Assembly (NCBI GenBank): GCA_964510375.1
Contig: CAZEBR010000001.1
Location: forward strand, 37,207 to 101,206
DNA from: Candidatus Hadarchaeota archaeon
Lineage (GTDB): Archaea > Hadarchaeota > Hadarchaeia > Hadarchaeales > JAGGTB01
Direction of reading: 5' to 3'
Length of the DNA stretch: 64,000 nucleotides
This document shows positions 1,205 to 51,295 of this stretch, one piece after another. The position numbers were made by a program, and so were the translations under genes. How positions within the stretch are numbered: the first letter of the stretch is position 1; each line of letters opens with the position of its first letter. The notes under the pieces were generated by a model. It worked only from the letters and a program-made list of their open reading frames with translations. It made no database searches and was not told the origin of the DNA.

Positions 1205-1441
1205 ATTTTCACCTCCTATTGGAAAATATATAGTTAGCGGGAGAAACCGTCTCCGGTCGCCTCTCGATTTTTAGGTTACAGATTCGCTTCTTCCGAAATT
1301 CGAAATTTCTATTTAAATCTAAGAAGTTCGTCTCCCCCGTCAAATGTTTCCCATGAATGTATAAATGGGTTATAATAGTATAAATCTTCTCTGCGATTGA
1401 ATCGACGATAGAGGCCTGATCTTCGCAAGTTTTCAGATTGT

Positions 1442-2050
1442 TTAGTAGTGTACGATGTCGGCATTCTCCGGCGGCGAGAACAGGTTGTCCGGTAGGGTGG
1501 GATTGACGTCTTTCAACGTAATTGTCACGGACCAGTTTGCGTAGGAATAATCGTAGCTCCCTTCGCCTTTTTTTACCCATTCCTGTGCTTTCTCTGCGAT
1601 ATCCATGTAAACTTCACCTTGGGAAAGTGGAATTTCGGCCCAAGAATCTCCTCCCATATAAGCGTAGTAGGCGTTTTCGTCGCCGGGGTAAATCCAAATG
1701 CCCGTGCCGTCCGAACTCTCGATCCTCACTTTGGGAGTCTCGGTGTTGATTTCCTTGATCCAGTAGGAGATATCTCCTCCTAACTTTCCGTTTTCGAATC
1801 CTTTTATGTTGATTTTAGCGCTGGTTATTTCGTTTCTGCCGTTTCCTCCTCCGGAAAGAAGAAGATAACCTCCGATAAGCGCCGCAATCAGTAGTCCAAC
1901 AGTTAGTATCTTAATGGTAGGGGGTCCCGATTCCTGTTTTTCTTCTCTGGAAGAACTGCGTTTGGAGGAAAATTTACTATTTACGTTAATATATTTTCCA
2001 CACTTTGGATAGCGGATCAAACTAAAACCTGTTTTTCTATTATCTAGCAC
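1442..2050 (-). CDS. Hypothetical membrane-anchored extracytoplasmic protein
   Basis: Single N-proximal TM helix (ILTVGLLIAALIGGYLLL) followed by Gly-rich linker and soluble domain; no recognisable family; true start may be internal. Confidence 0.4.
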   Translation of the reverse strand: MLDNRKTGFSLIRYPKCGKYINVNSKFSSKRSSSREEKQESGPPTIKILTVGLLIAALIGGYLLLSGGGNGRNEITSAKINIKGFENGKLGGDISYWIKEINTETPKVRIESSDGTGIWIYPGDENAYYAYMGGDSWAEIPLSQGEVYMDIAEKAQEWVKKGEGSYDYSYANWSVTITLKDVNPTLPDNLFSPPENADIVHY

Positions 2051-2298
2051 ATAGTAATAAATATTAAAAGAAAATTCTATTTCTCAGCTCTCTTTTTTCA
2101 TATTGTGAGGGGAGATGCGAAATATTTTTTCTTGTTTCGAATGTGAAGAATAATTTCCGGAGTACGTTGATTTATCTCCCAAGTGTTGAGGGAGTTTGAG
2201 TAAGAGTTTCGAAAAAAGCTAACTTTAGATATTTTTGTCCGAAAGTGTGGAATCGATAAAAATGTAAAAGGATAAGGCACCATTGGGATTATAGAGAA

Positions 2299-3882
2299 AT
2301 GGGGGGTGATATTTTGGAAGAAAAAGTTGTAGCTAAGGTAGACGAACTTAGCGATGGCGGGATGAAGAAGGTTGAGTGCGGGGAAAAGGAGATTCTTTTG
2401 GTAAAGTTGGATGGCGAATTTCACGCACTCGGTCCGGAGTGTAGTCATTACGGAGCTCCTCTGGAAGAAGGTGTTCTAAACGAGGGAAGGATCAGGTGTC
2501 CTTGGCACCAAGCCTGCTTTGACGCTGTTTCCGGGGATATCGAAGAACCGCCTGCTTTGGATGCGATATCGGATTTCGAAACGAAGGTGAAGGGCGAGGA
2601 TGTGGTCGTCGTTCTCCCGGAGGAAGTCGAATATACCCGGGTCACCGATATGGTTTCTTATAATCCTGGAAAAGACGACAGGACTTTCTTAGTTCTGGGT
2701 GCCGGGTCTGCGGGAAATGCGGCTGCGGAGACGCTCAGACAGTCGGGCTACGAAGGGCGAATTGTGATGGTGACAAGGGAGGAGAACCTTCCTTATGATC
2801 GGCCGGATCTAAGCAAGAGGTATTTGAAAGAAAGAGTGAAACAGTCTCCGACTCTGAGGTCTAAAGAATTCTACGATAGGCACGATATAGAGGTTTTGAA
2901 GGGAAAGGAGGCAGTTGAGGTTGATTTTTCCGACAAGATAGTGGTATTCGAGGAGGGTCAAGAGTTGGAGTACGATAAGCTATTGTTGGCTACTGGAGGT
3001 AGACCCAGAAGGTTATCCGGTTCCGATCTGGATAGGATTTTCACACTCAGGACGGTCGAGGACGCCAATCGAATAAACGATGCCGCCGAGGATTCGACGA
3101 GGGTTTTGATCGTGGGTGCCAGTTTTATCGGGATGGAAACTGCCGCCAGCCTAAAGGAGAGCGGTCTTTCCGTGACCGTGGTCGCTCCCGAATCTACTCC
3201 TTTCGAGAGGACTCTCGGGAAGGAGGTTGGTCAGATGTTCGAGGAGATGCACAAGGAGAAAGGAGTCAATTTCCGACTCGGACAAAAAATCGAAAGGTTT
3301 GAAGGCGAAGAAAAGATCGAGTCCGCGGTTCTTGAGGGCGGTGAAGAGGTAAAAACCGATTTTGTGATAGCCGGGATAGGTGTAGAGCCCGCCACGGGTT
3401 TCTTGGAAGATGATGATTTGAATTCCGATGGTAGTCTTTCGGTAGATTTTAACCTGAGATTTAAGGAGGATGTCTACGCCGCTGGAGATATCGCAAGGTT
3501 TCCCGATTGGCGGACTGATGATGAGATAAGGATAGAGCACTGGAGACTCGCCCAGCAGCACGGTCGAATTGCTGCTAAAAACATGACTGGGGATGATGCT
3601 GATTATTCCAGTATTCCGTTTTTCTGGACGAGGCAGTTCGAAACGAGCTTGCAGTACGTGGGATATGTCGAGGAGTGGGACGAAGTGATATTCGACGGCG
3701 ATCCTTCGTCGCGTGACTTCGTCGGTTACTACGAAAAGGACGGAATGATTCTAGCCGCCGCTGGGCTCGGTAATTCCGCTAAGATGGTCGCTATCGCCGA
3801 GCTAATGCAGATGGATGAGATGCCTTCGCCTGAGGAGATAAAAACGGGTTCCACCGATATTACGGGTAAATTAAAGAGATAG
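2299..3882 (+). CDS. Rieske [2Fe-2S] domain fused to FAD/NAD(P)-dependent pyridine nucleotide-disulfide oxidoreductase (AIF/ferredoxin-reductase-like)
   Basis: N-terminal CSHYGAP...CPWHQACF Rieske box; two GxGxxG dinucleotide folds (LVLGAGSAGNAAAE, VLIVGASFIGMETAA); 527 aa. Confidence 0.75.
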   Translation: MGGDILEEKVVAKVDELSDGGMKKVECGEKEILLVKLDGEFHALGPECSHYGAPLEEGVLNEGRIRCPWHQACFDAVSGDIEEPPALDAISDFETKVKGEDVVVVLPEEVEYTRVTDMVSYNPGKDDRTFLVLGAGSAGNAAAETLRQSGYEGRIVMVTREENLPYDRPDLSKRYLKERVKQSPTLRSKEFYDRHDIEVLKGKEAVEVDFSDKIVVFEEGQELEYDKLLLATGGRPRRLSGSDLDRIFTLRTVEDANRINDAAEDSTRVLIVGASFIGMETAASLKESGLSVTVVAPESTPFERTLGKEVGQMFEEMHKEKGVNFRLGQKIERFEGEEKIESAVLEGGEEVKTDFVIAGIGVEPATGFLEDDDLNSDGSLSVDFNLRFKEDVYAAGDIARFPDWRTDDEIRIEHWRLAQQHGRIAAKNMTGDDADYSSIPFFWTRQFETSLQYVGYVEEWDEVIFDGDPSSRDFVGYYEKDGMILAAAGLGNSAKMVAIAELMQMDEMPSPEEIKTGSTDITGKLKR

Positions 3883-4323
3883 TTCCCACTGGCGAATAGA
3901 AAGTGCGTAAGTTGGAGAGTTGGCAATCGATATTCTGATCCAGATTAATGGGATTTCGTCGTGATTTCCATCCCCGTTTATTTTCTTTTCGTTTTTCACC
4001 ACTCCGGGATAAGTTCTCAGAAGAATCTTGAAATTTCTTGATCAAAATAAAATTGGACTAAGGAATGTTCTCTAACTGTGAATTGGCAATGTGAATATAA
4101 AGACTATTACTATTTCTGAAATTGCTTAGCTGAAATTGATAGATATTTTCGTTTCAGGTGCCAATTCGCTTATTTTTTTAAAATAAGTTTATAAAAAGGA
4201 CATAAAAGAAAATAGGGGGACGATGATAGGTTTTTCCACTTAATGTTTTTATTAAGAGCTTTCATTATCATTAGTATTAACGGAAATAGTTATTAATGAA
4301 AAACGGTAATTAAAAACGGTAGA

Positions 4324-5088
4324 ATGTCGGGGGGAGAGCAGAAAAAATTCCGTAATTTGAGGATTTTTAATGGGGCTATGGGTGTTTTGCACCTCTCTCA
4401 ATCCATTTTGATGTTTGTACTGAGTAGTGATTTTTCTTTACCTGTCCTGAATTCCTACCTCACGGGGGCTCCGGGCTCCGAGACCACGACCGAGGTGCTT
4501 TTTAATCTCAGAATTGGCCCGATGGTAGCTCTTTTTTTACTAATATCTGCGGTAGCTCATTTTCTGCTCGCTACCGTTCTGTACGAATGGTACGTGAAGA
4601 ATCTGAAAGATCATATCAATCCCCTGCGATGGGTCGAGTATTCTTTCAGTTCCTCTATAATGATAGTGGTCATCGCGATGTTGACGGGTATCCTGGAGAT
4701 AGCCGCTCTGGTTACAATCTTCATCGTCAATGCTTCGATGATTCTTTTCGGCTGGATGATGGAACTCTACAACCAGGAGACAGAGGAGACGAAGTGGACT
4801 CCGTTTGTGTTCGGGTGCATCGCCGGAATTGCCCCTTGGATAGCAATAGCTATAAGTCTCGTGACGGCACTAACGAGCGCCACGGTCAATGTTCCCACAT
4901 TTGTCATAGGAATTTTTGTCTCGATAGGTGTACTATTCAACGTATTCGCTCTGAATCAGGTCCTGCAGTACAAGAAGGTGGGGCCTTGGAGGGACTATCT
5001 TTTCGGCGAGAAAATGTACGTCGTCTTGAGCTTGGTGGCCAAATCTGCTTTGGCCTGGCAGGTCTTTGCCGGTACGCTGATAGGATAG
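4324..5088 (+). CDS. Heliorhodopsin (inverted-topology microbial rhodopsin)
   Basis: 254 aa, 7 TM. Near-identical blocks to heliorhodopsin 48C12 recalled from memory: FN..GV.HL.Q, RWVEYSxSSSxMIVxIA, NASMILFGW, FGCIAGIxPWI, YxVLSLVAKSALAWQxFxGxLI. Schiff-base Lys (K240, AAA at 5041-5043), counterion Glu in RWVEY, and both conserved His present. Confidence 0.85.
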   Translation: MSGGEQKKFRNLRIFNGAMGVLHLSQSILMFVLSSDFSLPVLNSYLTGAPGSETTTEVLFNLRIGPMVALFLLISAVAHFLLATVLYEWYVKNLKDHINPLRWVEYSFSSSIMIVVIAMLTGILEIAALVTIFIVNASMILFGWMMELYNQETEETKWTPFVFGCIAGIAPWIAIAISLVTALTSATVNVPTFVIGIFVSIGVLFNVFALNQVLQYKKVGPWRDYLFGEKMYVVLSLVAKSALAWQVFAGTLIG

Positions 5089-5173
5089 GATTATTTAAGT
5101 TTGATTTCTTTTTTTGCTAATAAAAAGGGATTTCTGTAAAGAGTTTTAAAGCCCATTTTTTCTAACTTTTTGT

Positions 5174-5959
5174 ATGCCTTCCGATAAAAAATGCGATATT
5201 GAGCTGAGAAACGTATCCAAAGTGATAGATGGAGAGACGATCATAGACGATATCAGTTGGGGAGTGGGGGAGGGCGAAAATTGGGCACTGATTGGAGCAA
5301 ACGGTGCCGGAAAGACGACCTTGATGGAGATAATCACTGGATACATGTGGCCCAGCGAGGGCCAAGTCAGGGTCCTGGGGCACGATTTTGGTGATGTGGA
5401 TTTGAGGGAGTTGCGGAAACGGATAGGATACGTGAATTCGGTTCTACTGAGTGAGGTCCCTCCCATGGACACGGTCCGGGAGATAGTACTATCCGGCAAG
5501 TTCGGCACCCTTGGTCTGTACGACGAGACTTCAGCCCGTGACCTCGATCGCGCGGAAGAGATGCTGGAAGTGATGGGATGCGCAGACCGCTCTGGGGAGA
5601 GGTTTGAGACGCTTTCTCAGGGAGAAAAACAGAAAACAATCATAGCCCGTTCCCTGATGCCCGATCCCGATCTCCTGATATTGGACGAGCCAGCCATGGG
5701 CCTCGACCCCGCCTCGAGAGAAAGTTTTCTAGAAAGAATCGAAAAAATTGCCATGATGGAAAATGGTCCCACGATGATTTACATTACGCATCATATAGAG
5801 GAGATAATCCCCGTATTTGCCCGCGTAATTGTTCTTAAGGGTGGGAGCGTTCTGACCTCAGGGGAGAGGTCGGAAGTTTTGACAGGGGAGATTTTGAGTG
5901 AAGCTTTCGACAGGGATATGGATGTCATCGAAAAGGAAGGAAGGTACGTACTTGCCTGA
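5174..5959 (+). CDS. ABC transporter ATP-binding protein
   Basis: Walker A GANGAGKTT, signature LSQGEKQ, Walker B LLILDEP, H-loop ITHH. Confidence 0.8.
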   Translation: MPSDKKCDIELRNVSKVIDGETIIDDISWGVGEGENWALIGANGAGKTTLMEIITGYMWPSEGQVRVLGHDFGDVDLRELRKRIGYVNSVLLSEVPPMDTVREIVLSGKFGTLGLYDETSARDLDRAEEMLEVMGCADRSGERFETLSQGEKQKTIIARSLMPDPDLLILDEPAMGLDPASRESFLERIEKIAMMENGPTMIYITHHIEEIIPVFARVIVLKGGSVLTSGERSEVLTGEILSEAFDRDMDVIEKEGRYVLA

Positions 5960-6057
5960 TTGTCTCTTCGCCCGTCTTTCGGCTCTTCTTTACTTTCATC
6001 TACCTCTGTCGGAAAGTCATTTTTTATTGAGAGGGAACCTTAGCCCGAAAACTTGGG

Positions 6058-8097
6058 GTGTACCCGATTAATCTGGATCCGCTTTATCTCGATTCTCTAG
6101 AATCCCTCCGCGACATTCCTGGGATAGGCCGGAAAACGGCGGAGAGGCTTAAAGATTCCTTCGGTTCCGAGGAGTCTGCTTTGGAGGAGATTCGGAATGG
6201 CGATGTCGTCTCCCTGTCCAGCGTTTCGGATCTTTCCGAGGGTGATGCCTCGAGGATCATAAAAAATGCGATTGCAGAGGAGTACCGTTCCGAGAACCCT
6301 TTGAAGACCGAATCTCTGTCGGATATTTATGGGGACTTGCTCAACAGAATCAAGGAAAGGGCAAGGACCAAGTACGGCAAAGCGAGGTTGGACATTTACT
6401 TCCCTGTGTCTTCTGAGGAGAGAATAGAGGAGGTCAGGGAGTGGGTTGACATGGCCTTGAGCGTACGGGTCGATGGAAGTATCGAGGAGAGCATGGAGCG
6501 CGTATCCACATTGAAAGTCCCCGATAGAATCCATGTGGACGACAGAATTATACTAACGGACGATCTGGGGGAGCTAGAGAGGATTCAGGAGGAGATTCCG
6601 GGGGCTCAGGTCGATCTCGTCGATGATTACAGGGAGCTGAGGGACTACGTCAGGGAGTACGAGACGATATTTGTTTTGGGTGATGAATTTTCTGGAATTG
6701 ATATCGACTCGGAGTCGATAGAAAGGATACCCGGGGGTCTAGAGGACCCCTTGGAGGTCTTCCCGGAGATAGTCCTAAATTTTTTTACCGAAAACCTGGA
6801 ATCCATCGAGAACGCCATCGAAGTCCGTAAGAGAGTTGAAGCGCCTTTTCTGGATGACATCGACGGGGAGAGAATCGAAAAAGTCGAGAATTTGCTGTCT
6901 AATCTGGCTCCCGACGGGACCGTGAAACGGGAGGAAAATATTCGAAGGCTCGAGAATGCTTTGGAAAGGATGGGTGACGTTATAGAAAGGGCGGAATCTC
7001 GGGCAAACGATAGATTCGAGAAGCTCCTCGACGATAAGGAGATAACGATCCGCGGAAGCGATCTTAGGGGCCTGGTCAAAAACGGCGGCGAGGCGGATGA
7101 CTTGATCCGATCGGAACTGGGTGATGATTTCGATCGAATAGTTGAAGAAGCCGTCGAAGAGATAGTATCAGAGCTTGATTTGGATTACGAGGAGGAGGCC
7201 ATCGCCCAAGATTTGTTTGTCCAGGGCTTGGAGCTACCCTTGGAGGCCGATAAAGAAACGGTTAGCAGGTTGAGGGACGAGCTGAGGAGAAAGCATTCGT
7301 GGAAATCCCTAGAGACGAAGACACAGGTCGCCAGAGAGCTGGAAGATTTGCAGGAGGGTGTCGAGGATTTGGTTGATAAGGTTCTCGAACTAGATGCCGC
7401 CTTGGCGGTGAAGGAGTTTACGGAGGAAAATTCTATGACGATGCCGGAGTTCGACGGTCGAGGGTTTGATTTGAAGAGTGGAAAGAACATCTTTATCGAT
7501 AATCCGGAGTCGATAGATTACAAAGTCGAGGGCGTCAGGCTATTAACGGGCGTAAACAGTGGAGGGAAAACATCGGCCTTGGATTTGGTCGCCCAGTCTT
7601 ACGTACTTGCTCATATGGGATTTCCGGTTCCGGCAGAGGAGGCCAGGATTGAGATGATGGAGGAGTTCTATTACTATAGAAATATCAAGAAGACGATGAG
7701 TAGCGGTGCGCTCGAAAATATACTGAAGAGATTTGAGCGCTTGCTAGATTCTGAAGGCTCGAAGATCGTCCTCGTGGATGAGTTGGAAAACATTACCGAA
7801 CCTGGGGCTAGCGCCAAGATAGTTTCCGGGATCCTGGATATTTTAAAGACAGACGGCAGCGTAGCGGTCTTCGTCTCCCACCTAGCGGACAAGATTATGG
7901 AGAAAGCGAACTTTGAGATTCCCGTGGACGGCATTGAACCTGAGGGTCTCGATGAGGATATGAATCTGGTCGTCGACAGGTCTCCCAAGAGGGACTTGCT
8001 TGCCACTAGCACTCCCGAACTCGTCGTGAAAAAGCTCGGTAGCCGAAGTAACTCGGAGTTTTACGACGAACTCCTAGAGAAGTTTGACGGGTCGTAG
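6058..8097 (+). CDS. MutS-family (MutS2-like) P-loop ATPase with N-terminal helix-hairpin-helix DNA-binding region
   Basis: GTG start; N-terminal IPGIGRKTAERL HhH; MutS domain-V type P-loop LTGVNSGGKTSALDLVAQSYVLAHMGFPVPA and Walker B IVLVDELE; no mismatch-recognition domain; very acidic. Confidence 0.6.
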   Translation: MYPINLDPLYLDSLESLRDIPGIGRKTAERLKDSFGSEESALEEIRNGDVVSLSSVSDLSEGDASRIIKNAIAEEYRSENPLKTESLSDIYGDLLNRIKERARTKYGKARLDIYFPVSSEERIEEVREWVDMALSVRVDGSIEESMERVSTLKVPDRIHVDDRIILTDDLGELERIQEEIPGAQVDLVDDYRELRDYVREYETIFVLGDEFSGIDIDSESIERIPGGLEDPLEVFPEIVLNFFTENLESIENAIEVRKRVEAPFLDDIDGERIEKVENLLSNLAPDGTVKREENIRRLENALERMGDVIERAESRANDRFEKLLDDKEITIRGSDLRGLVKNGGEADDLIRSELGDDFDRIVEEAVEEIVSELDLDYEEEAIAQDLFVQGLELPLEADKETVSRLRDELRRKHSWKSLETKTQVARELEDLQEGVEDLVDKVLELDAALAVKEFTEENSMTMPEFDGRGFDLKSGKNIFIDNPESIDYKVEGVRLLTGVNSGGKTSALDLVAQSYVLAHMGFPVPAEEARIEMMEEFYYYRNIKKTMSSGALENILKRFERLLDSEGSKIVLVDELENITEPGASAKIVSGILDILKTDGSVAVFVSHLADKIMEKANFEIPVDGIEPEGLDEDMNLVVDRSPKRDLLATSTPELVVKKLGSRSNSEFYDELLEKFDGS

Positions 8098-8199: not shown

Positions 8200-8565
8200 A
8201 TGCCAAGAGGAGATGGAACTGGACCGACTGGCTCAGGCCCTATGACAGGTAGATCTTTAGGCTACTGCACGGGTTCCAATACCCCAGGGTTTGCGAGTTC
8301 GGCCCCTAGGATGTCAAATGGTCCTCGTCAGGGAGCTAAAGCATCAGGTCGTGCTGATAATTCCGGTCGTGGAGCAGGTCGAGGAAGGTCGGCTGGAAGA
8401 GGATCCGGTAATTCCGGACGTGGAAGAGGACCTCGAGGACGGTCCCAGTCCCTCGGATCGGCGACCTCTCAAAGACAAGTTAACACTAATTCCAGGCAGA
8501 ATAATCCGGCCAATAATCAGCGTGCCGGGGTCGGTCGTCGTACAGGGTCGGATAACAGGAGGTGA
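8200..8565 (+). CDS. DUF5320-like protein, N-terminal part (MPRGDGTGP...GPMTGR...GYC motif plus Gly/Arg-rich low-complexity); terminated by in-frame TGA
   Basis: Conserved N-terminal motif of a family I recall as DUF5320; TTTAAATA TATA-like box and AAGGTGGTGA RBS upstream; stop TGA at 8563-8565 is immediately followed in the same frame by ATG of next ORF. Confidence 0.5.
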   Translation: MPRGDGTGPTGSGPMTGRSLGYCTGSNTPGFASSAPRMSNGPRQGAKASGRADNSGRGAGRGRSAGRGSGNSGRGRGPRGRSQSLGSATSQRQVNTNSRQNNPANNQRAGVGRRTGSDNRR

Positions 8566-8910
8566 ATGTCAATGGGACAACACGGACATAGAAACATGTT
8601 TTACGCAACCGGTTTACCCGGATGGATGAGGTTCGGATACAGTCCCGGATGGGGTGGAATGCCCCCTTGCGCGCAGTACTTAGAACGGACGGAAAGGTTG
8701 TCCGAGGCCGTAGATTGGTTTAATCAGCAGACGGATGTCCAACCCAATCAGACGATTCAGGCAGATGTTTCCTATTCTCCTGCGTCTCAATCCCGGAGTT
8801 CGGAGCAAACTTCGGCGGATCAAGGGATTCAAGAACTGGAAGGCCGACTGAACGCTCTCAAAGATCGGATCGAACAAATCAGGGAAAAGCTCGAACAGTT
8901 GAAAGAATGA
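8566..8910 (+). CDS. DUF5320-like protein, C-terminal part (Gly/Pro/aromatic-rich region plus C-terminal coiled coil)
   Basis: Same frame as 8200-8565 and contiguous with it; GLPGWMRFGYSPGWGG mid-region and ELEGRLNALKDRIEQIREKLEQLKE coiled coil match the usual C-terminal half of this family. Confidence 0.45.
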   Translation: MSMGQHGHRNMFYATGLPGWMRFGYSPGWGGMPPCAQYLERTERLSEAVDWFNQQTDVQPNQTIQADVSYSPASQSRSSEQTSADQGIQELEGRLNALKDRIEQIREKLEQLKE

Positions 8911-9025
8911 CACTGGGGGATTCGTGAATGATAAGATTAATTGTAGCCGGCCAGAATGGCCGTTTGAAGGAAAGGTCCGTTTGAATAGACATGAAAAATC
9001 GGGGATGGGCTGAAGAATTTGAAAA

Positions 9026-9430
9026 ATGTTCAATCTTGCAAAAGTTGGTGGTGTTGTGAAAGTAGCGAGTAGTGCGGAAGGGCAGAGCTTGGACAGCCAA
9101 GTAAGTCCGGTTTTTGGACGATGTCAATGTTTCGTCATAGTGGGCTTGGAGGACGACAAAATAAAAAATAGCTATTGTCTTGAAAATGCGGCTGCCAGCG
9201 AATATAGCGGAGCGGGGACTGAGGCCGCTCAGATTGTCGGTGATGAGGAAACGGATGTCGTGATTTCAGGCTCCGTGGGGCCCAAGGCCTTTTCTGCCTT
9301 GAAACAGCGAAATATCCGTGTGTATAGGGGCAAGCCGGGCACAGTGAGAGAGAACATCGATAAACTTTCCAGAGGGGAACTGGAGGTAGTGGATTCCCCC
9401 ACCGGGTCCCCCCACATGGGACTCGATTAG
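9026..9430 (+). CDS. Dinitrogenase FeMo-cofactor-binding domain protein (NifX/NafY/NifB-C-terminal-like, PF02579-type)
   Basis: Family pattern VKVASS.G...VSPVFGRC..FVIV...D......GAG...A.IV....DVVISGSVGPKA...L....I.VY; probable alternative GTG start at 9056 with GGTGGTG RBS. Confidence 0.7.
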   Translation: MFNLAKVGGVVKVASSAEGQSLDSQVSPVFGRCQCFVIVGLEDDKIKNSYCLENAAASEYSGAGTEAAQIVGDEETDVVISGSVGPKAFSALKQRNIRVYRGKPGTVRENIDKLSRGELEVVDSPTGSPHMGLD

Positions 9431-9495
9431 TAATAAATCGGAAGAATCTGATTTCAAATTAATTAAGGTGTAAACACCTTATATACTGGAGGTCG

Positions 9496-9792
9496 TTGGA
9501 AGGAATGCCTAGACGTAGGAGAAGGAGAAGAGTCGGTTTTCGACCCAATCGGAAATACTTTGGTCCCGGACGAGGAAGGGCCAGCGACGAGGTGGTGATG
9601 AGGGTGGAGGAGCTAGAAGCTATCAGACTGAAGGACGGAGAGGGGTTTTCCCAGGTCGAGTCCGCGGAAAAGATGGATGTCTCTCAGCCGACTTTTTCTA
9701 GGATACTGGAGTCTGCTAGGCAGAAGGTAGCGGACGCTCTGGTAAACGGCAAGGCCCTTCGGATAGAGGGCGGGGACTATGAGGTTGTTTGA
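9496..9792 (+). CDS. DUF134 (UPF0251) family putative DNA-binding protein
   Basis: N-terminal [24 protein letters not shown] motif and C-terminal sigma-70 region-4-like HTH ([51 protein letters not shown]). Confidence 0.65.
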
Positions 9793-9839
9793 ATCGAAGG
9801 GAAATCCAATTATTTATTAATCTGTATAAATAGTGCGAG

Positions 9840-10685
9840 TTGAATAAAGATATGAACGAAGAAATGATGGAAAAGGCTCAGAAGGAAATGAAGGAAAGAA
9901 ACGAAAAAGTCGCCCAAAACATCGAAAGAGTCGATAATACGATAGCCGTGATGAGCGGCAAGGGAGGCGTCGGTAAGAGTACAGTTGCGGCCAATCTCGC
10001 CACCGAGTTGGCGGTGCAGGGTTACGACGTGGGTCTCATGGACTGCGACATGCACGGGCCGAGCATTCCGAAAATCGTGGGGATCGATTACGATCAGAGG
10101 CCGGAGGGGACCGATTCAAATATGAATCCCGTATCCACGGACGTGGGGCTGAAAGTAATTTCTATGGGGTCCTTATTGCCAGAGAGCGACTCCCCGGTCG
10201 TCTGGAGGGGCCCACTGAAGATGAGGGCTATACAGCAGTTTTTAGGCGATGTTAAGTGGGGTGATCTGGATTACTTGATCTTTGACCTGCCTCCAGGAAC
10301 GGGCGACGAACCCCTGAGCATAGCACAGCTTTTGCCTGATCCGGATGGCGCTGTCATAGTCACGACACCTCAGGAGGTGGCTCTTCAGACGATAAGAAGG
10401 GCGGTAAACTTTGCCAAAAAGGTCGATTTGCCGGTTTTGGGGATAATAGAGAATATGAGCGGTTTTGTTTGTCCCCATTGTGGTGAAAAATCCGATATAT
10501 TTAGCTCGGGTGGTGGCAAGGATCTCTCAGAAGAATTGAACATCCCGTTCCTTGGTAGCATTCCCCTTGATCAGGAAATAGTCGAAAGTGGAGAAGAGGG
10601 AAGACCAATAGTTCTGAAGGAAGGGTCCGATGCTGCGAAGGCCTTCAAGGATATTGTTTCCGACATAAAGAAGGCGTTGAGCTGA
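9840..10685 (+). CDS. Mrp/NBP35/ApbC family Fe-S cluster carrier ATPase
   Basis: Deviant Walker A VMSGKGGVGKST; conserved CPHCG cluster-binding motif; 281 aa. Confidence 0.85.
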   Translation: MNKDMNEEMMEKAQKEMKERNEKVAQNIERVDNTIAVMSGKGGVGKSTVAANLATELAVQGYDVGLMDCDMHGPSIPKIVGIDYDQRPEGTDSNMNPVSTDVGLKVISMGSLLPESDSPVVWRGPLKMRAIQQFLGDVKWGDLDYLIFDLPPGTGDEPLSIAQLLPDPDGAVIVTTPQEVALQTIRRAVNFAKKVDLPVLGIIENMSGFVCPHCGEKSDIFSSGGGKDLSEELNIPFLGSIPLDQEIVESGEEGRPIVLKEGSDAAKAFKDIVSDIKKALS

Positions 10686-10810
10686 GATTATTAATCCCTC
10701 GTCCAGCAGCATGCCGGTTGATTCGGTCTCAGAATTTTGACACTATTTACTCAGGGGGACATGAGGAAATTTTGAAATAGTTAGCCGGTAGAAAATTGAT
10801 TGCGACTGGT

Positions 10811-11653
10811 CTAAATTGAGTCCGTCCGCTTTATGATTGCGCTACCTTCTTTCGCCCCGACTCGTCGGCTTACGTGGGGACATTTGACCATGAAAAGGAA
10901 AAAGATGTTCGCTTCGACTTCACTGAAAGCTTCGTAGTTTGCCTGCCCCTTGCTGACGACCACATCGGCGTTACTCAGCCTCGATTTGAACTCTTCCGAG
11001 ATTTTATTGAGCCCGATGTTCTCCTCCATCTCTTCGATTTCGGCTACCTTATCTATTCCCGCGAATTCGGCTTCAGGCCTCATGGCATCGTTCAGCATCG
11101 GAAAACCACGAACAAAGCACCTAACATTTTTTTCTGGCAGTTCTTCCAATAGGAGCCGGTCGAATACTATCTCTCCAGCGTTATCCAAAAGGTATACTAT
11201 ATTATCGGCTTCGCCTATTTCTTTCTTGAACTCTTTAAAATGGTCTATTTCGAAATTCCCGTTCAGATTATTTTCGATAGTTTTCTCTATGTCGAAGTCT
11301 CTGTCGGGGCCGAAATCTATGATGTTTCCGGCAATTGCTATTTTGGTGGCGGTAAGCATCCTATCTTCGGACTCTTCGATTTTTTCTTTCATGCTCGGAT
11401 ACAGGTTCATGGCTTTCTCGTTTGACTCCCTTTTCAGCTTGCGGTAGGGGTCCTGGGTGCTTGTTACCTCCCTTACGATTTTCAGTACCCTGTAAGAAAT
11501 CGAGAGGGGGATTCCATCCAAGCTGATTCTTCCGAGTTCTTTTGCTACTTCTTTTATGGCCTTTCTCTGCAGGGTTTCATCGTCCGTGGCCAGTTTGCTG
11601 GCCTCCAATGCACTTTTCATTATGCACGGTATACAGTCTGGACAAGCTTTCAA
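10811..11653 (-). CDS. DUF89 (ARMT1-like damage-control phosphatase) family protein
   Basis: 280 aa; N-terminal C-x-D-C-x-x-C, DNAGE and KGQANYE motifs typical of archaeal DUF89 proteins. Confidence 0.55.
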   Translation of the reverse strand: MKACPDCIPCIMKSALEASKLATDDETLQRKAIKEVAKELGRISLDGIPLSISYRVLKIVREVTSTQDPYRKLKRESNEKAMNLYPSMKEKIEESEDRMLTATKIAIAGNIIDFGPDRDFDIEKTIENNLNGNFEIDHFKEFKKEIGEADNIVYLLDNAGEIVFDRLLLEELPEKNVRCFVRGFPMLNDAMRPEAEFAGIDKVAEIEEMEENIGLNKISEEFKSRLSNADVVVSKGQANYEAFSEVEANIFFLFMVKCPHVSRRVGAKEGSAIIKRTDSI

Positions 11654-11822
11654 TTATTTCACCTACGAATGTGATGATTGAGGTTGTCTCGGTCTCGAGA
11701 TAAATCTTACCCTCGTTTCAGACTTGAATGACTTGACGGGACCTAATGGCTCCCTTCGGTTCCTTTCGCTCGGATTCGTTCCACTGTCTCGGCTATAAAG
11801 TTTTTCAGGATTTAAGGATCGT

Positions 11823-12167
11823 TCAATGTTTTCCATTCCCGGGTTCGCAAAGGTTTTCACCTGAGTCTATATCCCCTTCCAGGAACTGTTCGATCACATT
11901 TTCGACCTCACCGTTCACTCCGCTGATTACTTTTATGCCCAAATCGTCGAATATGTTAATGGCTTTTCTCCCGATACCGCCGGTGATTATACAGTCCACG
12001 TTATTCTCGCTCATGAATTGGGGGATGTATCCCGGTTTGTGTCCGGGATTTTCGACTACATCCTTACTTTTCACCTTATTTCCCTCGATTTCTACGAAGG
12101 TGAATTCGGGACATCTACCGAAATGAGTTGCTACCATTCCAGAGTCTGTCGGTATGCCAACTTTCAT
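11823..12167 (-). CDS. Dinitrogenase FeMo-cofactor-binding domain protein (NifX-like, second paralogue)
   Basis: MKVGIPTDSGMVATHFGRCPEFTFVEI...NPGHKPG...NVDCIITGGIGRKA...GIKVI family pattern. Confidence 0.7.
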   Translation of the reverse strand: MKVGIPTDSGMVATHFGRCPEFTFVEIEGNKVKSKDVVENPGHKPGYIPQFMSENNVDCIITGGIGRKAINIFDDLGIKVISGVNGEVENVIEQFLEGDIDSGENLCEPGNGKH

Positions 12168-22833: not shown

Positions 22834-23115
22834 CTATTTTTTGTATGCGTTTTTTCTGTGAAAAATGGATAAAAACCTGATCTCTCCACCCAAGATGTCG
22901 AAAAATGCTCGATAATCACCGATCCTTAATCTCCAGACACGCTTTTCGGGAATGTATTTTGTACTACCGTGCTGTCTCGGGTCGATAGAATAATCGTTCA
23001 CTTGTTTACCGAACTCTCGAAGTTTTTTCAGAACCCTCTCCCTGGTCTCGCTCGGCAGTTTTTCAAGATTTTCGTCAAATTTTTGAGTACGGGTGAGTTT
23101 AAAAGAGCTCGTCAA
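22834..23115 (-). CDS. RelE/ParE-family type II toxin
   Basis: C-terminal ..RVWRLRIGDYRAFFDILGGEIRFLSIFHRKNAY pattern; likely TTG start at 23115 overlapping antitoxin stop by 17 nt (ORF track start 23181). Confidence 0.5.
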   Translation of the reverse strand: MTSSFKLTRTQKFDENLEKLPSETRERVLKKLREFGKQVNDYSIDPRQHGSTKYIPEKRVWRLRIGDYRAFFDILGGEIRFLSIFHRKNAYKK

Positions 23116-23317
23116 GCGGTTTCCCCTCTTGCTTTCTAGCCTCTTCGATATCCCGTTTTGCCTTTTCAGAAAGCTCGGCATCTTCGACCTTTCGAAGTAG
23201 AGATCTTAGAAACTCGCCTCTAGAGGTAAACCTCCCCGATTCTACCGCCTTGTCGATCCGTTCGATCTGTTCTTCCGTCGCTTTAAAGCTCACGTTTTTC
23301 GTCTCGGACATTGCCAC
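23099..23317 (-). CDS. Ribbon-helix-helix (CopG/RHH) antitoxin
   Basis: 72 aa; N-terminal beta-strand plus two helices (VSFKATEEQIERIDKAVESGRFTSRGEFLRSLL); immediately upstream of and overlapping the RelE-like ORF. Confidence 0.55.
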   Translation of the reverse strand: MAMSETKNVSFKATEEQIERIDKAVESGRFTSRGEFLRSLLRKVEDAELSEKAKRDIEEARKQEGKPLDELF

Positions 23318-50953: not shown

Positions 50954-51295
50954 TTATGTATCTAATTCATTCAAAAGGCTCTTATATATCTCGTAAAGCC
51001 CGCCTTTGCTTATGCCAAGAGCTTGAGAGATTTCTACTTGGCTTCTCCAGTCACCCGTTTCATTTACTGCGATGTAAATAGCGGCGGCGAGTAAACTGTT
51101 CGGATTTTTGTCTTCTGCTATTCCCTTTTCGTCCGCTTTCTTGATTATTTCAATTGCCTTCTCTTGGGTCTCTTCCGACAGGCCGAGTTCCTCGGCCGCT
51201 TTTGGCATGAGATTCGATAAAATGCTCATCAGATCTGATTTTACCATTTTTCTGTCATCGTTCATCATGTTTTCACTTCGATTGTTTACTCTCAT
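50954..51295 (-). CDS. Stand-alone TFIIB/TFB cyclin-fold-like small protein (mini-TFB?)
   Basis: 113 aa; LSEETQEKAIEIIKKADEKGIAEDKNPNSLLAAAIYIAVNETGDWRSQVEISQALGISKGGLYEIYKSL parallels one TFB core cyclin repeat (AAAIYIA.R....T..EI........EI...Y..I). Confidence 0.4.
   Translation of the reverse strand: MRVNNRSENMMNDDRKMVKSDLMSILSNLMPKAAEELGLSEETQEKAIEIIKKADEKGIAEDKNPNSLLAAAIYIAVNETGDWRSQVEISQALGISKGGLYEIYKSLLNELDT

What the first reader, a model, noticed from the sequence alone, without database searches (positions are those of the whole stretch)
4324..5088. Heliorhodopsin in an archaeal chromosome, next to a Rieske-flavoprotein oxidoreductase
The 254-aa product aligns block-for-block with heliorhodopsin 48C12. 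The retinal Schiff-base Lys sits in SLVAKSALAWQ (K240, AAA at 5041-5043), the counterion Glu in RWVEY, and both conserved His are present. This is a light sensor/photoreceptor-family protein, not an ion pump. Heliorhodopsin function is still unresolved, so an archaeal copy with its own AT-rich promoter (TTTATAAA-like element near 4187) and T-rich terminator (5095-5115) is worth follow-up. The adjacent Rieske-FAD oxidoreductase (2299-3882) hints at a possible redox partner.
Basis: partly seen in the sequence, partly recalled or inferred. Interest (0 to 1): 0.7.

Follow-up and report, generated by a model that had tools for sequence, protein, structure and literature searches.

The report
Ordinary stand-alone archaeal heliorhodopsin gene
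This is an intact, textbook heliorhodopsin (a retinal-binding light-sensor membrane protein) in a salt-loving Hadarchaeota/MSBL1-like archaeon; it belongs to an already well-described family, and the neighbouring Rieske-flavoprotein is not its partner.

Summary
ORF 4324-5088 (+) encodes a 254-aa heliorhodopsin. It matches Pfam PF18761 (342 bits, cut-off 26.7) and the NCBIfam HeR equivalog (349 bits, cut-off 100). It is 58% identical to the crystallised archaeal TaHeR, and its AlphaFold model superimposes on TaHeR at TM 0.92-0.93. All hallmark residues are present: K240 (AAA 5041-5043), E105 in RWVEY, H23 and H79. So are the residues of the lateral fenestration.

The host is archaeal, probably a halophilic Hadarchaeota/MSBL1-like organism. 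The exact protein is already in NCBI, and relatives at 70-76% identity are annotated "heliorhodopsin HeR".

The proposed Rieske-FAD "redox partner" is not supported. That gene belongs to a conserved backbone (rhodanese, Rieske-FAD, MutS-like, UbiA, NurA) which a related genome has without a heliorhodopsin. That same genome keeps its heliorhodopsin elsewhere, next to two sensor histidine kinases.

The downstream orphan ABC ATPase shares a ~2-kb window-specific segment with the heliorhodopsin. However, it is unlinked from the heliorhodopsin in another relative that has both genes.

No retinal or carotenoid biosynthesis genes were found in the 64 kb. The most likely function is a self-contained, slow-cycling, light-sensing regulatory rhodopsin that uses exogenous retinal. 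Its partner is unidentified. This is a known kind, of low interest.

The parts
4324..5088 (+). Heliorhodopsin gene (254 aa, ATG...TAG), intact and full-length
   Evidence: It matches Pfam PF18761 over 1-242/242 at 342 bits and the NCBIfam NF038020 equivalog at 349 bits against a cut-off of 100. PDB 6IS6 matches at E = 9e-84. The AF2 model (pLDDT 89.4) superimposes on TaHeR at TM 0.92-0.93.
5041..5043 (+). Codon AAA for K240, the retinal Schiff-base lysine (equals K241 of 48C12 and K238 of TaHeR)
   Evidence: Three-way alignment. The column is invariant in a 40-sequence alignment.
4636..4638 (+). Codon GAG for E105, the Schiff-base counterion in the RWVEY motif (equals E107 of 48C12 and E108 of TaHeR)
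   Evidence: R102, W103, E105 and Y106 are all invariant.
4390..4392 (+). Codon CAC for H23, the first conserved histidine of the proton-accepting group
   Evidence: invariant column.
4558..4560 (+). Codon CAT for H79, the second conserved histidine (equals H80 of 48C12 and H82 of TaHeR)
   Evidence: invariant column.
4004..4323 (+). AT-rich (31-36% GC) upstream region with no counterpart in the syntenic relative; the presumed heliorhodopsin promoter
   Evidence: TATA-like candidates lie at 4290-4297 (ttattaat, 27-34 nt before the ATG, which would suit a leaderless mRNA) and at 4188-4195 (tttataaa). Absence from L081 is shown. Which element is used is not determined. No Shine-Dalgarno sequence is evident.
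5095..5115 (+). T-rich tract with a T7 run at 5109-5115, 20 nt after the stop codon; a candidate archaeal oligo-T terminator
   Evidence: Similar T-runs follow the heliorhodopsin stop codon in L001, L003, L014 and L075. Caveat: the same T7 motif occurs inside the CDS at 4533-4539 (repeat D5).
5174..5959 (+). Neighbour, not shown to be a partner: stand-alone YlmA/ModF-like ABC ATPase (nucleotide-binding domain only, 261 aa) with no permease gene beside it
   Evidence: Pfam ABC_tran. The best NCBIfam hit is ModF, below its cut-off. The homolog family is described. It lies with the heliorhodopsin inside the window-specific ~2-kb segment. It is unlinked from the heliorhodopsin in GCA_964384105.1.
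2299..3882 (+). Neighbour, rejected as a partner: Rieske [2Fe-2S] + FAD/NAD(P) pyridine-nucleotide-disulfide oxidoreductase + Reductase_C fusion (AIF3-like)
   Evidence: Domain content. The family is widespread and mostly bacterial. The gene is part of a conserved backbone that lacks a heliorhodopsin in L081. Its own T-rich terminator at 3971-4000 aligns with that of L081.
4004..5994 (.). Window-specific segment (promoter region + heliorhodopsin + ABC ATPase) relative to the syntenic locus L081 of GCA_964565155.1
   Evidence: blastn and MAFFT show that L081 aligns to the window up to about 4000 and again from about 5995.

Best explanation
The gene encodes a canonical heliorhodopsin: a 7-TM retinal protein with the N-terminus in the cytoplasm.

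Inferred mechanism, by homology to the characterised TaHeR and 48C12:
- All-trans retinal, most probably scavenged from the environment through the conserved lateral fenestration, forms a protonated Schiff base with K240, stabilised by the single counterion E105.
- Green light isomerises the retinal.
- The Schiff-base proton moves to the internal H23/H79/water cluster rather than across the membrane.
- A seconds-long O-like state then changes the cytoplasmic surface.
- That long-lived state acts as a light switch on one or more partner proteins by direct protein-protein contact, most plausibly within a response to photo-oxidative or UV stress. It does not pump ions.

In this genome the gene is a self-contained, probably monocistronic module. 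It moves between loci in related archaea, so its partner is not encoded by either flanking gene.

Shown here: family membership, fold, the full catalytic constellation, the topology signal, and the lack of conserved neighbours. Inferred: retinal binding, the photocycle, the absence of transport, the regulatory mode, and the nature of the partner.
For: Identity:
- Pfam 342 bits and the NCBIfam equivalog 349 bits, both full-length.
- 58% identity to TaHeR and 50% to 48C12.
- AF2 pLDDT 89.4. TM 0.92-0.93 and rmsd 1.5-1.7 A to TaHeR, against TM ~0.65 and 10-16% identity to type-1 rhodopsins.

Catalytic and retinal-pocket residues:
- H23, S75, H79, N99, R102, W103, E105, Y106, S110, N136, M139, E147, W172, Q212, Y225, E229, S236, K240 and W245 are all identical to 48C12.
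- Most of these are invariant in 40 relatives.
- Fenestration residues F161, C165, G168, F205, N206 and A209 equal 48C12 F162, C166, G169, F206, N207 and A210.

Topology: K+R count is 12 in the N-terminus and the predicted cytoplasmic loops, against 1 in the external loops and C-terminus.

Stand-alone module:
- A different neighbourhood was found in every close relative examined.
- Nucleotide homology to relatives is confined to the CDS, 4345-5088.
- There is a 441-nt spacer upstream and a T7 run downstream.
- An integrase gene lies 820 nt upstream of the closest relative.

Sensory role:
- The heliorhodopsin of the syntenic sister genome lies directly downstream of PAS and GAF histidine kinases. 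This matches the histidine-kinase association reported across phyla (bioRxiv 10.1101/2021.02.01.429150).
- Published work reports no transport and a seconds-long O state for TaHeR and 48C12 (10.1101/2025.11.27.691015).
- Published regulatory partners of bacterial heliorhodopsins are photolyase (PMC9769723), glutamine synthetase (PMC9529153, as cited in PMC11109279) and an ABC exporter (PMC11109279).

Exogenous retinal:
- No crt, blh or brp family was found in any scanned ORF of the 64 kb.
- Genomes with only a heliorhodopsin mostly lack the de novo pathway.
Against: - Nothing here demonstrates chromophore binding, a photocycle or a partner.
- Only 64 kb of the genome was visible, so retinal, carotenoid and photolyase genes elsewhere cannot be excluded.
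- No histidine kinase or known heliorhodopsin partner class lies within the window.
- Hadarchaeota/MSBL1 lineages are typically from dark or anoxic habitats, where both light and O2-dependent retinal formation are limited.
- Some viral heliorhodopsins do transport protons, and a light-harvesting (carotenoid antenna) role has recently been proposed for the family.
Confidence: 0.7

Rival explanations
1. The heliorhodopsin and the adjacent orphan YlmA/ModF-like ABC ATPase (5174-5959) form a two-gene light-regulated module. The photoactivated heliorhodopsin binds the soluble ATPase and modulates its activity, by analogy with OcHeR activating the ABC exporter OmrDE.
For: - The two genes are on the same strand, 85 nt apart.
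- Together with the AT-rich promoter region they make up exactly the ~2-kb segment (about 4004-5994) that is absent from the syntenic locus L081.
- 'ABC transporter' is one of ten recurrent heliorhodopsin neighbour classes, and OcHeR-OmrDE binding is experimentally shown (PMC11109279).
Against: - GCA_964384105.1 has both a heliorhodopsin (72% identity) and the ABC ortholog (59% identity), on different contigs and in unrelated contexts.
- The Hadesarchaea ortholog (54% identity) also has no heliorhodopsin nearby.
- In SRR31824751 the ortholog follows an ABC-2 transporter pair, not a heliorhodopsin.
- None of 74 heliorhodopsin loci has an ABC hit above 31% identity.
- The protein is a nucleotide-binding domain only, unlike the fused TMD-NBD exporter OmrDE.
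- A T7 run and a TATA-like 'ttttaaag' about 28 nt before the ABC start codon suggest separate transcription.
- The indel rests on a single genome comparison and could be two separate events.
Confidence: 0.08
2. One reading: the upstream Rieske-FAD oxidoreductase is a redox partner of the heliorhodopsin.
For: Only adjacency on the same strand, 441 nt apart. The heliorhodopsin literature also has a general 'oxidative-stress' theme.
Against: - A homolog lies near the heliorhodopsin in 1 of 74 loci, and only at 29% identity in a bacterium.
- It is absent from all close relatives' heliorhodopsin loci.
- None of the three nearest Rieske-FAD homolog loci has a heliorhodopsin.
- In GCA_964565155.1 both genes exist but are unlinked.
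- The family is huge (6972 hits at E < 1e-20), and its named relatives are mostly bacterial phyla such as Poribacteria, Planctomycetota and Bipolaricaulia. Heliorhodopsins are reported to be restricted to monoderms.
- It has its own T-rich terminator, conserved with L081.
Confidence: 0.02
3. The protein is not a sensor. It has an energetic or catalytic role instead: light harvesting with an exogenous xanthophyll antenna, proton or ion transport as in the viral V2HeR3, or an enzymatic activity in the E147 cavity.
For: - The fenestration, or 'carotenoid-binding site', residues are fully conserved.
- The preprint 10.1101/2025.11.27.691015 proposes that heliorhodopsins are two-antenna proteins, and notes that the E149/E193 cavity could be an active site.
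- Viral heliorhodopsins transport protons (cited).
Against: - The closest characterised relatives (TaHeR at 58%, 48C12 at 50%) show no transport.
- Conservation of the fenestration is shared by all heliorhodopsins and is equally explained by retinal uptake.
- An antenna does not by itself define an output.
- No enzymatic activity has been demonstrated for any heliorhodopsin.
Confidence: 0.1
4. The gene is carried but is effectively light-blind in its host: an apoprotein without retinal in a dark, anoxic niche, or a recently transferred passenger gene. Any role it has is light-independent.
For: - No retinal pathway was found in the window.
- The host lineage is typically subsurface or brine-dwelling and anaerobic.
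- The gene is positionally mobile, and an integrase lies next to the closest relative.
Against: - The ORF is intact and every functional residue is preserved. Sixty-eight columns are invariant across 40 relatives at 57-76% identity to this protein, which indicates purifying selection on the photochemistry.
- Related anaerobic lineages carrying heliorhodopsins come from sunlit surface sediments.
- Heliorhodopsins capture exogenous retinal efficiently.
Confidence: 0.07

Closest known systems
TaHeR, heliorhodopsin of Thermoplasmatales archaeon SG8-52-1 (PDB 6IS6, 7CLJ, 7U55)
   Same: Both are archaeal, stand-alone proteins of about 250 aa. They are 58% identical, with model-to-crystal TM 0.92-0.93 and rmsd 1.5-1.7 A. 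They share the Schiff-base Lys, the Glu counterion, the His pair, and the S75/S236, E147 and E229 network.
   Different: At four pocket or cavity positions the window protein follows 48C12 rather than TaHeR: S110 (TaHeR A113), N136 (T139), W144 (L147) and Q212 (M210). ECL1 is 3 residues shorter and the TM5-TM6 loop is 5 residues longer. The host is a different phylum (Hadarchaeota-like rather than Thermoplasmatota).
48C12, the founding bacterial (actinobacterial) heliorhodopsin (PDB 6SU3, 6SU4, 6UH3, 9LJJ)
   Same: All 20 inspected functional residues and all six fenestration residues are identical. TM is 0.90.
   Different: Identity is only 50%. The host is bacterial rather than archaeal.
Annotated heliorhodopsins of MSBL1, Hadarchaeia, Thermoplasmatota and Natronoplasma MAGs (P0003, P0009, P0014, P0023, P0031 and others)
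   Same: They are 64-76% identical and the same length, with the same single-domain architecture (no Zn-ribbon or MORN fusion). They come from hypersaline or sediment anaerobes.
   Different: The genomic neighbourhood differs in every case.
Experimentally defined heliorhodopsin-partner systems: TfHeR-photolyase, AbHeR-glutamine synthetase, OcHeR-OmrDE ABC exporter
   Same: The presumed mode of action is the same: a slow-cycling heliorhodopsin binds and modulates a cytoplasm-facing partner (PMC9769723; PMC11109279).
   Different: None of those partner genes (photolyase, glutamine synthetase, fused TMD-NBD exporter) is adjacent here. The adjacent ABC protein is a nucleotide-binding domain only, and the adjacency is not conserved.

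Membership tests
Heliorhodopsin (Pfam PF18761 / NCBIfam NF038020) | Full-length match to the curated family profiles above their cut-offs | tested here: met
   PF18761 scores 342 bits against 26.7, covering profile positions 1-242/242. The NF038020 equivalog scores 349 bits against 100, covering 1-244/244.
Heliorhodopsin (Pfam PF18761 / NCBIfam NF038020) | Seven-helix rhodopsin fold with the long beta-hairpin ECL1, superimposable on solved heliorhodopsins | tested here: met
   The AF2 model has pLDDT 89.4 and pTM 0.85. It shows seven long helices, strands at 38-46 and 54-63, and the short helix 87-95. Foldseek gives TM 0.92-0.93 to 6IS6/7CLJ and 0.90 to 6SU3.
Heliorhodopsin (Pfam PF18761 / NCBIfam NF038020) | Retinal Schiff-base lysine in TM7 (48C12 K241) | tested here: met
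   K240 aligns with K241 of 48C12 and K238 of TaHeR. The column is invariant.
Heliorhodopsin (Pfam PF18761 / NCBIfam NF038020) | Single glutamate counterion in TM3 within the RWxEY motif (48C12 E107) | tested here: met
   R102-W103-V104-E105-Y106. R, W, E and Y are invariant in 40 sequences.
Heliorhodopsin (Pfam PF18761 / NCBIfam NF038020) | Conserved histidine pair of the proton-accepting group (48C12 H23, H80) | tested here: met
   H23 and H79, both invariant columns.
Heliorhodopsin (Pfam PF18761 / NCBIfam NF038020) | Inverted membrane topology (N-terminus cytoplasmic) | tested here: met
   By the positive-inside rule, there are 12 K/R in the N-terminus, ICL1, ICL2 and ICL3, against 1 in the ECLs and C-terminus. 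This is a sequence-based inference, not an experimental determination.
Heliorhodopsin (Pfam PF18761 / NCBIfam NF038020) | Binds all-trans retinal, absorbs in the green, has a seconds-long photocycle, and shows no ion transport | not testable with these tools
   This requires expression, spectroscopy and transport assays. It is expected by homology to TaHeR and 48C12.
Type-1 microbial rhodopsins (pumps, channels, sensory rhodopsins; Pfam Bac_rhodopsin) | Profile match to Bac_rhodopsin; fold and sequence closer to type-1 rhodopsins than to heliorhodopsins | tested here: not met
   There is no Bac_rhodopsin hit at E <= 0.01. The best type-1 structures give TM ~0.65, E ~1e-3 and 10-16% identity, against TM 0.92 and E 1e-21 for heliorhodopsins.
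Heliorhodopsin-ABC transporter operon group (OcHeR-OmrDE type, PMC11109279) | The heliorhodopsin is co-operonic with fused TMD-NBD ABC exporter gene(s), and the adjacency recurs among relatives | tested here: not met
   The adjacent ABC protein is a 261-aa nucleotide-binding domain with no transmembrane domain or permease gene. The 85-nt spacer contains a T7 run. Orthologs are unlinked from the heliorhodopsin in relatives, and no ortholog lies near the heliorhodopsin in 74 loci.
   Adjacency is seen in 1 of 74 loci, and that is a 29%-identical hit. None of 3 Rieske-FAD homolog loci has a heliorhodopsin. The two genes are unlinked in GCA_964565155.1, which has both.

The most novel reading that the evidence does not exclude
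The heliorhodopsin and the orphan YlmA/ModF-like ABC ATPase were gained (or, in the relative, lost) together as a 2-kb two-gene cassette. On this reading the heliorhodopsin gates the ATPase by light. That would be the first effector identified for an archaeal heliorhodopsin, and the first case in which the target is a soluble protein consisting only of a nucleotide-binding domain rather than a membrane exporter.
Probability: 0.07. Interest if true: 0.55.

Novelty: already known. Interest (0 to 1): 0.2.

Why it matters
The biological output of heliorhodopsins is still largely unresolved, so any locus that pins down a partner would be valuable. This one does not. It is a canonical family member that NCBI's HeR equivalog model matches far above its cut-off. 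The sequence is already deposited, it lies in a clade whose members are already labelled heliorhodopsin, and it has no conserved neighbour.

Two modest points have value:
- Comparative genomics shows the gene behaving as a relocating single-gene module in halophilic Hadarchaeota/MSBL1-like archaea. It has a different context in each genome, once beside sensor kinases and once beside an integrase. This argues against reading function from adjacency in this clade.
- It adds to the evidence that lineages thought of as dark-habitat anaerobes keep an intact light sensor without a visible retinal pathway.

Tried and rejected
- **Source contig:** an exact look-up of the window's heliorhodopsin returned no gene on record, so the rest of the 145-kb contig could not be read. 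Cluster look-ups gave no name or accession.
- **RNA genes:** tRNA and Rfam scans of the window found nothing useful for taxonomy or regulation.
- **Bacterial motif scan:** the sigma-70 and intrinsic-terminator scan found fewer sites than in shuffled sequence. It is not appropriate for an archaeon anyway.
- **Mobile-cassette ends:** a 16-nt inverted repeat (3937-3952 / 6064-6079, 15/16 complementary) brackets the heliorhodopsin-ABC segment and was considered as terminal repeats. I rejected it as evidence for three reasons. Chance expectation is about 0.13. The right arm lies inside the conserved MutS-like coding sequence and is partly conserved in L081, which lacks the cassette. The left arm lies outside the refined indel boundary.
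- **'DNA repair' neighbourhood theme:** the window has HhH-MutS-like, MSBL1 has PolX and LigA, and L079 has a pyrimidine-dimer glycosylase. I noted this but did not pursue it statistically, because the genes differ in each case and the MutS-like gene belongs to the heliorhodopsin-free backbone in L081.
- **Recurrent neighbours:** clustering of heliorhodopsin neighbours across 74 loci gave only lineage-specific synteny blocks within Thermoplasmata, and none includes the window.
- **Flanking homology:** nucleotide homology beyond the CDS was sought in 11 relatives and none was found.
Full report
**1. Observation**

The ORF is exactly as described: 4324..5088 on the + strand, ATG to TAG, 254 aa. 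The peptide SLVAKSALAWQ is present and its lysine is residue 240, encoded by AAA at 5041-5043. RWVEY carries E105 (GAG 4636-4638). H23 (CAC 4390-4392) and H79 (CAT 4558-4560) are both present. The TTTATAAA element (4188-4195) and the T-rich tract 5095-5115, with a T7 run at 5109-5115, are also in the sequence. The upstream ORF 2299-3882 is Rieske + Pyr_redox_2 + Reductase_C.

**2. Family membership**

- Pfam PF18761 (Heliorhodopsin) matches over its whole length at 342 bits, against a cut-off of 26.7 (E = 2e-102). There is no Bac_rhodopsin hit.
- NCBI's equivalog model NF038020 'heliorhodopsin HeR' scores 349 bits against a cut-off of 100.
- Against PDB sequences, the best match is the archaeal TaHeR (6IS6/7U55, E = 9e-84), ahead of 48C12 (E = 6e-69). 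In a three-way alignment, identity is 58% to TaHeR and 50% to 48C12.
- All 20 functional positions I checked are identical to 48C12: H23, S75, H79, N99, R102, W103, E105, Y106, S110, N136, M139, W144, E147, W172, Q212, Y225, E229, S236, K240 and W245.
- In an alignment of 40 relatives (57-76% identity to this protein), 68 columns are invariant. They include H23, H79, E105 and K240.
- The six residues that a 2025 preprint defines as the lateral fenestration or carotenoid-binding site are also identical: F161, C165, G168, F205, N206 and A209.
- An AlphaFold2 model (pLDDT 89.4, pTM 0.85) has seven long helices and the ECL1 beta-hairpin. It superimposes on TaHeR at TM 0.92-0.93 and rmsd 1.5-1.7 A. 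The best type-1 rhodopsins reach only TM ~0.65 at 10-16% identity.
- Lys and Arg are distributed 12 to 1 in favour of the N-terminus and alternate loops, as expected for the inverted, N-in topology.

Every sequence-testable defining feature of the family is met.

**3. Host and habitat**

The window is an archaeal chromosome. It carries fibrillarin and Nop5, GatD/GatE, RFC small subunit, family-B DNA polymerase, NurA/HerA, Elp3, class-V FBPase, DGGGP-synthase-like UbiA and IleRS.

Window genes are 59-72% identical at the protein level to genes on a contig labelled Candidatus Hadarchaeota (L012). The nearest named heliorhodopsin relatives are from MSBL1 single cells (76%, 73%), Hadarchaeia/Hadarchaeota MAGs (70-73%) and Thermoplasmata/Natronoplasma (63-67%). 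The median predicted pI of 31 window proteins is 4.9, which indicates a halophile.

From my own knowledge, MSBL1 ('Persephonarchaea') is grouped with Hadesarchaea in GTDB's Hadarchaeota. The exact protein is already held in NCBI on a 145,029-bp contig.

**4. The Rieske-FAD 'redox partner'**

This protein belongs to a very large family of Rieske-flavoprotein fusions ('AIF3-like'), with 6972 hits at E < 1e-20. Its named relatives are mostly bacteria: Poribacteria, Planctomycetota, Phycisphaerae and Bipolaricaulia.

In 74 heliorhodopsin loci from species-representative genomes, a homolog lies within 10 kb in only one, a Tissierellaceae bacterium at 29% identity.

Its closest homolog (P0123, 61%) lies on L081 of GCA_964565155.1, which is syntenic with the window. 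The order there is rhodanese(-), Rieske-FAD(+), MutS_V-like(+), UbiA(-), Zn-ribbon(+), NurA(+), at 77, 61, 68, 65 and 43% identity for the first five (NurA aligns at 65% over the part on the locus), with no heliorhodopsin in between. The same assembly carries a heliorhodopsin 72% identical to ours on another contig (L091). There it lies directly downstream of a PAS-HATPase kinase and a GAF-HisKA-HATPase sensor kinase.

So both genes exist in the relative but are unlinked. The Rieske-FAD gene belongs to a backbone that is independent of the heliorhodopsin. It also has its own T-rich terminator, conserved with L081. The partner idea is therefore rejected.

**5. The ABC ATPase**

Alignment with L081 shows that window ~4004-5994 is a window-specific segment. 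It contains exactly three things: the AT-rich upstream region, the heliorhodopsin, and the 261-aa ABC ATPase. This makes the ABC gene a better candidate than the Rieske gene. Heliorhodopsin-ABC coupling also has a precedent in OcHeR-OmrDE (PMC11109279).

The evidence against it is stronger:
- The protein is a stand-alone YlmA/ModF-like nucleotide-binding domain with no permease gene beside it.
- In GCA_964384105.1 the ortholog (59%) and a heliorhodopsin (72%) lie on different contigs.
- The Hadesarchaea ortholog (54%) and another at 59% have no heliorhodopsin upstream.
- No heliorhodopsin locus in the 74 has an ABC hit above 31% identity.
- The 85-nt spacer carries a T7 run and a TATA-like box correctly placed for the ABC gene.

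I keep this as the most novel reading not excluded, at a probability of about 0.07.

**6. The heliorhodopsin as a relocating single-gene module**

Each close relative has a different context:

| Relative | Context of the heliorhodopsin |
|---|---|
| MSBL1 | HeR, MFS, hypothetical, PolX, LigA |
| Hadarchaeia type | ACD, DRTGG protein, HeR, then NifU and cysteine desulfurase on the opposite strand |
| GCA_964384105.1 | Pyrimidine-dimer glycosylase, HeR, hydrogenase-like complex |
| Closest relative (76%) | A Phage_integrase gene 820 nt upstream |
| GCA_964565155.1 | Two histidine kinases, then HeR |

Nucleotide homology between the window and 11 relatives is confined to the CDS, 4345-5088. T-runs immediately after the stop codon recur in several relatives. 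However, the same T7 motif also occurs inside this CDS at 4533-4539, so termination is inferred, not shown.

A TATA-like 'ttattaat' at 4290-4297 lies 27-34 nt before the ATG. With no Shine-Dalgarno sequence, it would suit a leaderless transcript better than the element at 4188. Which one is used cannot be decided here.

**7. Retinal supply**

I scanned the greedy non-overlapping ORF set of 70 aa or more, apart from four short ORFs of 72-80 aa, against Pfam or NCBIfam. No phytoene synthase or desaturase, lycopene cyclase, Blh/Brp, photolyase or type-1 rhodopsin was found. Only 64 kb is visible, so this says nothing definite about the genome. It does agree with the published finding that heliorhodopsin-only genomes mostly lack de novo retinal synthesis and are thought to capture exogenous retinal.

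**8. Mechanism**

By homology to TaHeR and 48C12, the steps below are inferred:
- All-trans retinal binds K240 as a protonated Schiff base, with E105 as counterion.
- Light isomerises the retinal.
- The proton is accepted within the H23/H79/water cluster.
- A seconds-long O state persists, and no ion is transported. These are properties reported for TaHeR and 48C12.
- The long-lived state is read out by protein-protein contact.

Three lines of evidence fit a sensory or regulatory role tied to light stress. The first is the kinase-adjacent copy in the sister genome. The second is the published association with histidine kinases, oxidative-stress genes and UV-repair genes. The third is the three experimentally defined bacterial partners. 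The partner in this organism remains unidentified.

**9. Comparison and novelty**

This is a canonical member of a family with several crystal structures, one of them archaeal. Close relatives in the same lineages are already annotated as heliorhodopsin. I found no paper in the searchable library that discusses heliorhodopsins specifically in Hadarchaeota or MSBL1, but the database annotations exist.

Nothing in the sequence departs from the family, and no fused domain is present. I rate it 'already known' with low interest (0.2). The general open question of heliorhodopsin function is not made more testable by this locus, apart from the low-probability ABC-ATPase lead.

Noticed in passing
window 3937-3952 and 6064-6079: A 16-nt inverted repeat (GATCCAGATTAATGGG / CCGATTAATCTGGATC, 15/16 complementary) brackets the heliorhodopsin-ABC segment. 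These are the only two matches in the 64 kb, with a chance expectation of about 0.13. The right arm lies inside the MutS-like CDS and is partly conserved in L081, so this is probably coincidence.
   Followed up: partly
window 8200-12126: A second block is absent from the syntenic locus L081: DUF5320, a Nitro_FeMo-Co (NifB/X-like) protein, DUF134, an Mrp/NUBPL-type ParA ATPase, an ARMT1-like damage-control phosphatase, and two ORFs with no Pfam family. It looks like an inserted or deleted cassette related to Fe-S or metal-cofactor handling.
   Followed up: no
window 1205-2298 (ORF 1442-2050, minus strand): The spacer between the rhodanese and Rieske-FAD genes is about 1.1 kb here, against 192 nt in L081. 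It holds a 202-aa ORF with no Pfam or NCBIfam match, which makes a third window-specific insertion in this backbone.
   Followed up: no
window 6058-8097: A 679-aa protein has N-terminal helix-hairpin-helix motifs and a weak MutS domain V ATPase. Its best NCBIfam hit, below cut-off, is the KamC-like reactivase ATPase. It is conserved at 68% identity in L081. It appears to be an uncharacterised archaeal MutS-like protein.
   Followed up: partly
window 48100-50775 (minus strand): An 891-aa fusion of ADP-forming acyl-CoA synthetase domains (CoA_binding, Succ_CoA_lig, ATP-grasp_5) with a C-terminal GNAT acetyltransferase. This is the architecture of bacterial Pat/YfiQ-type protein lysine acetyltransferases, here in an archaeon.
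   Followed up: no
window 50954-51295 (minus strand): A 113-aa ORF with a single TFIIB cyclin repeat. It is either a truncated or stand-alone TFB fragment, or an ORF whose true start was missed.
   Followed up: no
window 22834-23181 (minus strand), with the small ORF 23099-23317: A ParE-family toxin gene with an overlapping upstream small ORF, likely a type II toxin-antitoxin pair. It lies next to a 1328-aa protein (24350-28336) that has only a weak Ig-like domain hit.
   Followed up: no
window 4533-4539: A T7 run lies inside the heliorhodopsin coding sequence (GCT CTT TTT TTA CTA). It is the same 16-nt motif (15/16) as the presumed terminator at 5107-5122. Oligo-T tracts are archaeal termination signals, so either this is tolerated or the T-run downstream is weaker evidence of termination than it looks.
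   Followed up: partly
L091 2431-5903 (GCA_964565155.1 contig 65): In the sister genome, the heliorhodopsin lies 419 nt downstream of two tandem sensor histidine kinases on the same strand (PAS-HATPase, and GAF-HisKA-HATPase). This is a candidate signalling context for this heliorhodopsin clade.
   Followed up: partly
L089 1444-4047 (Logan SRR31824751): The closest heliorhodopsin relative (76% identity) has a Phage_integrase-family gene 820 nt upstream. This hints that the heliorhodopsin travels on or next to mobile DNA in this clade. Bacterial-labelled MAGs (Paceibacterota at 73%, Halanaerobiales at 60%) carry very similar heliorhodopsins, which suggests inter-domain transfer or mis-binning.
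   Followed up: no
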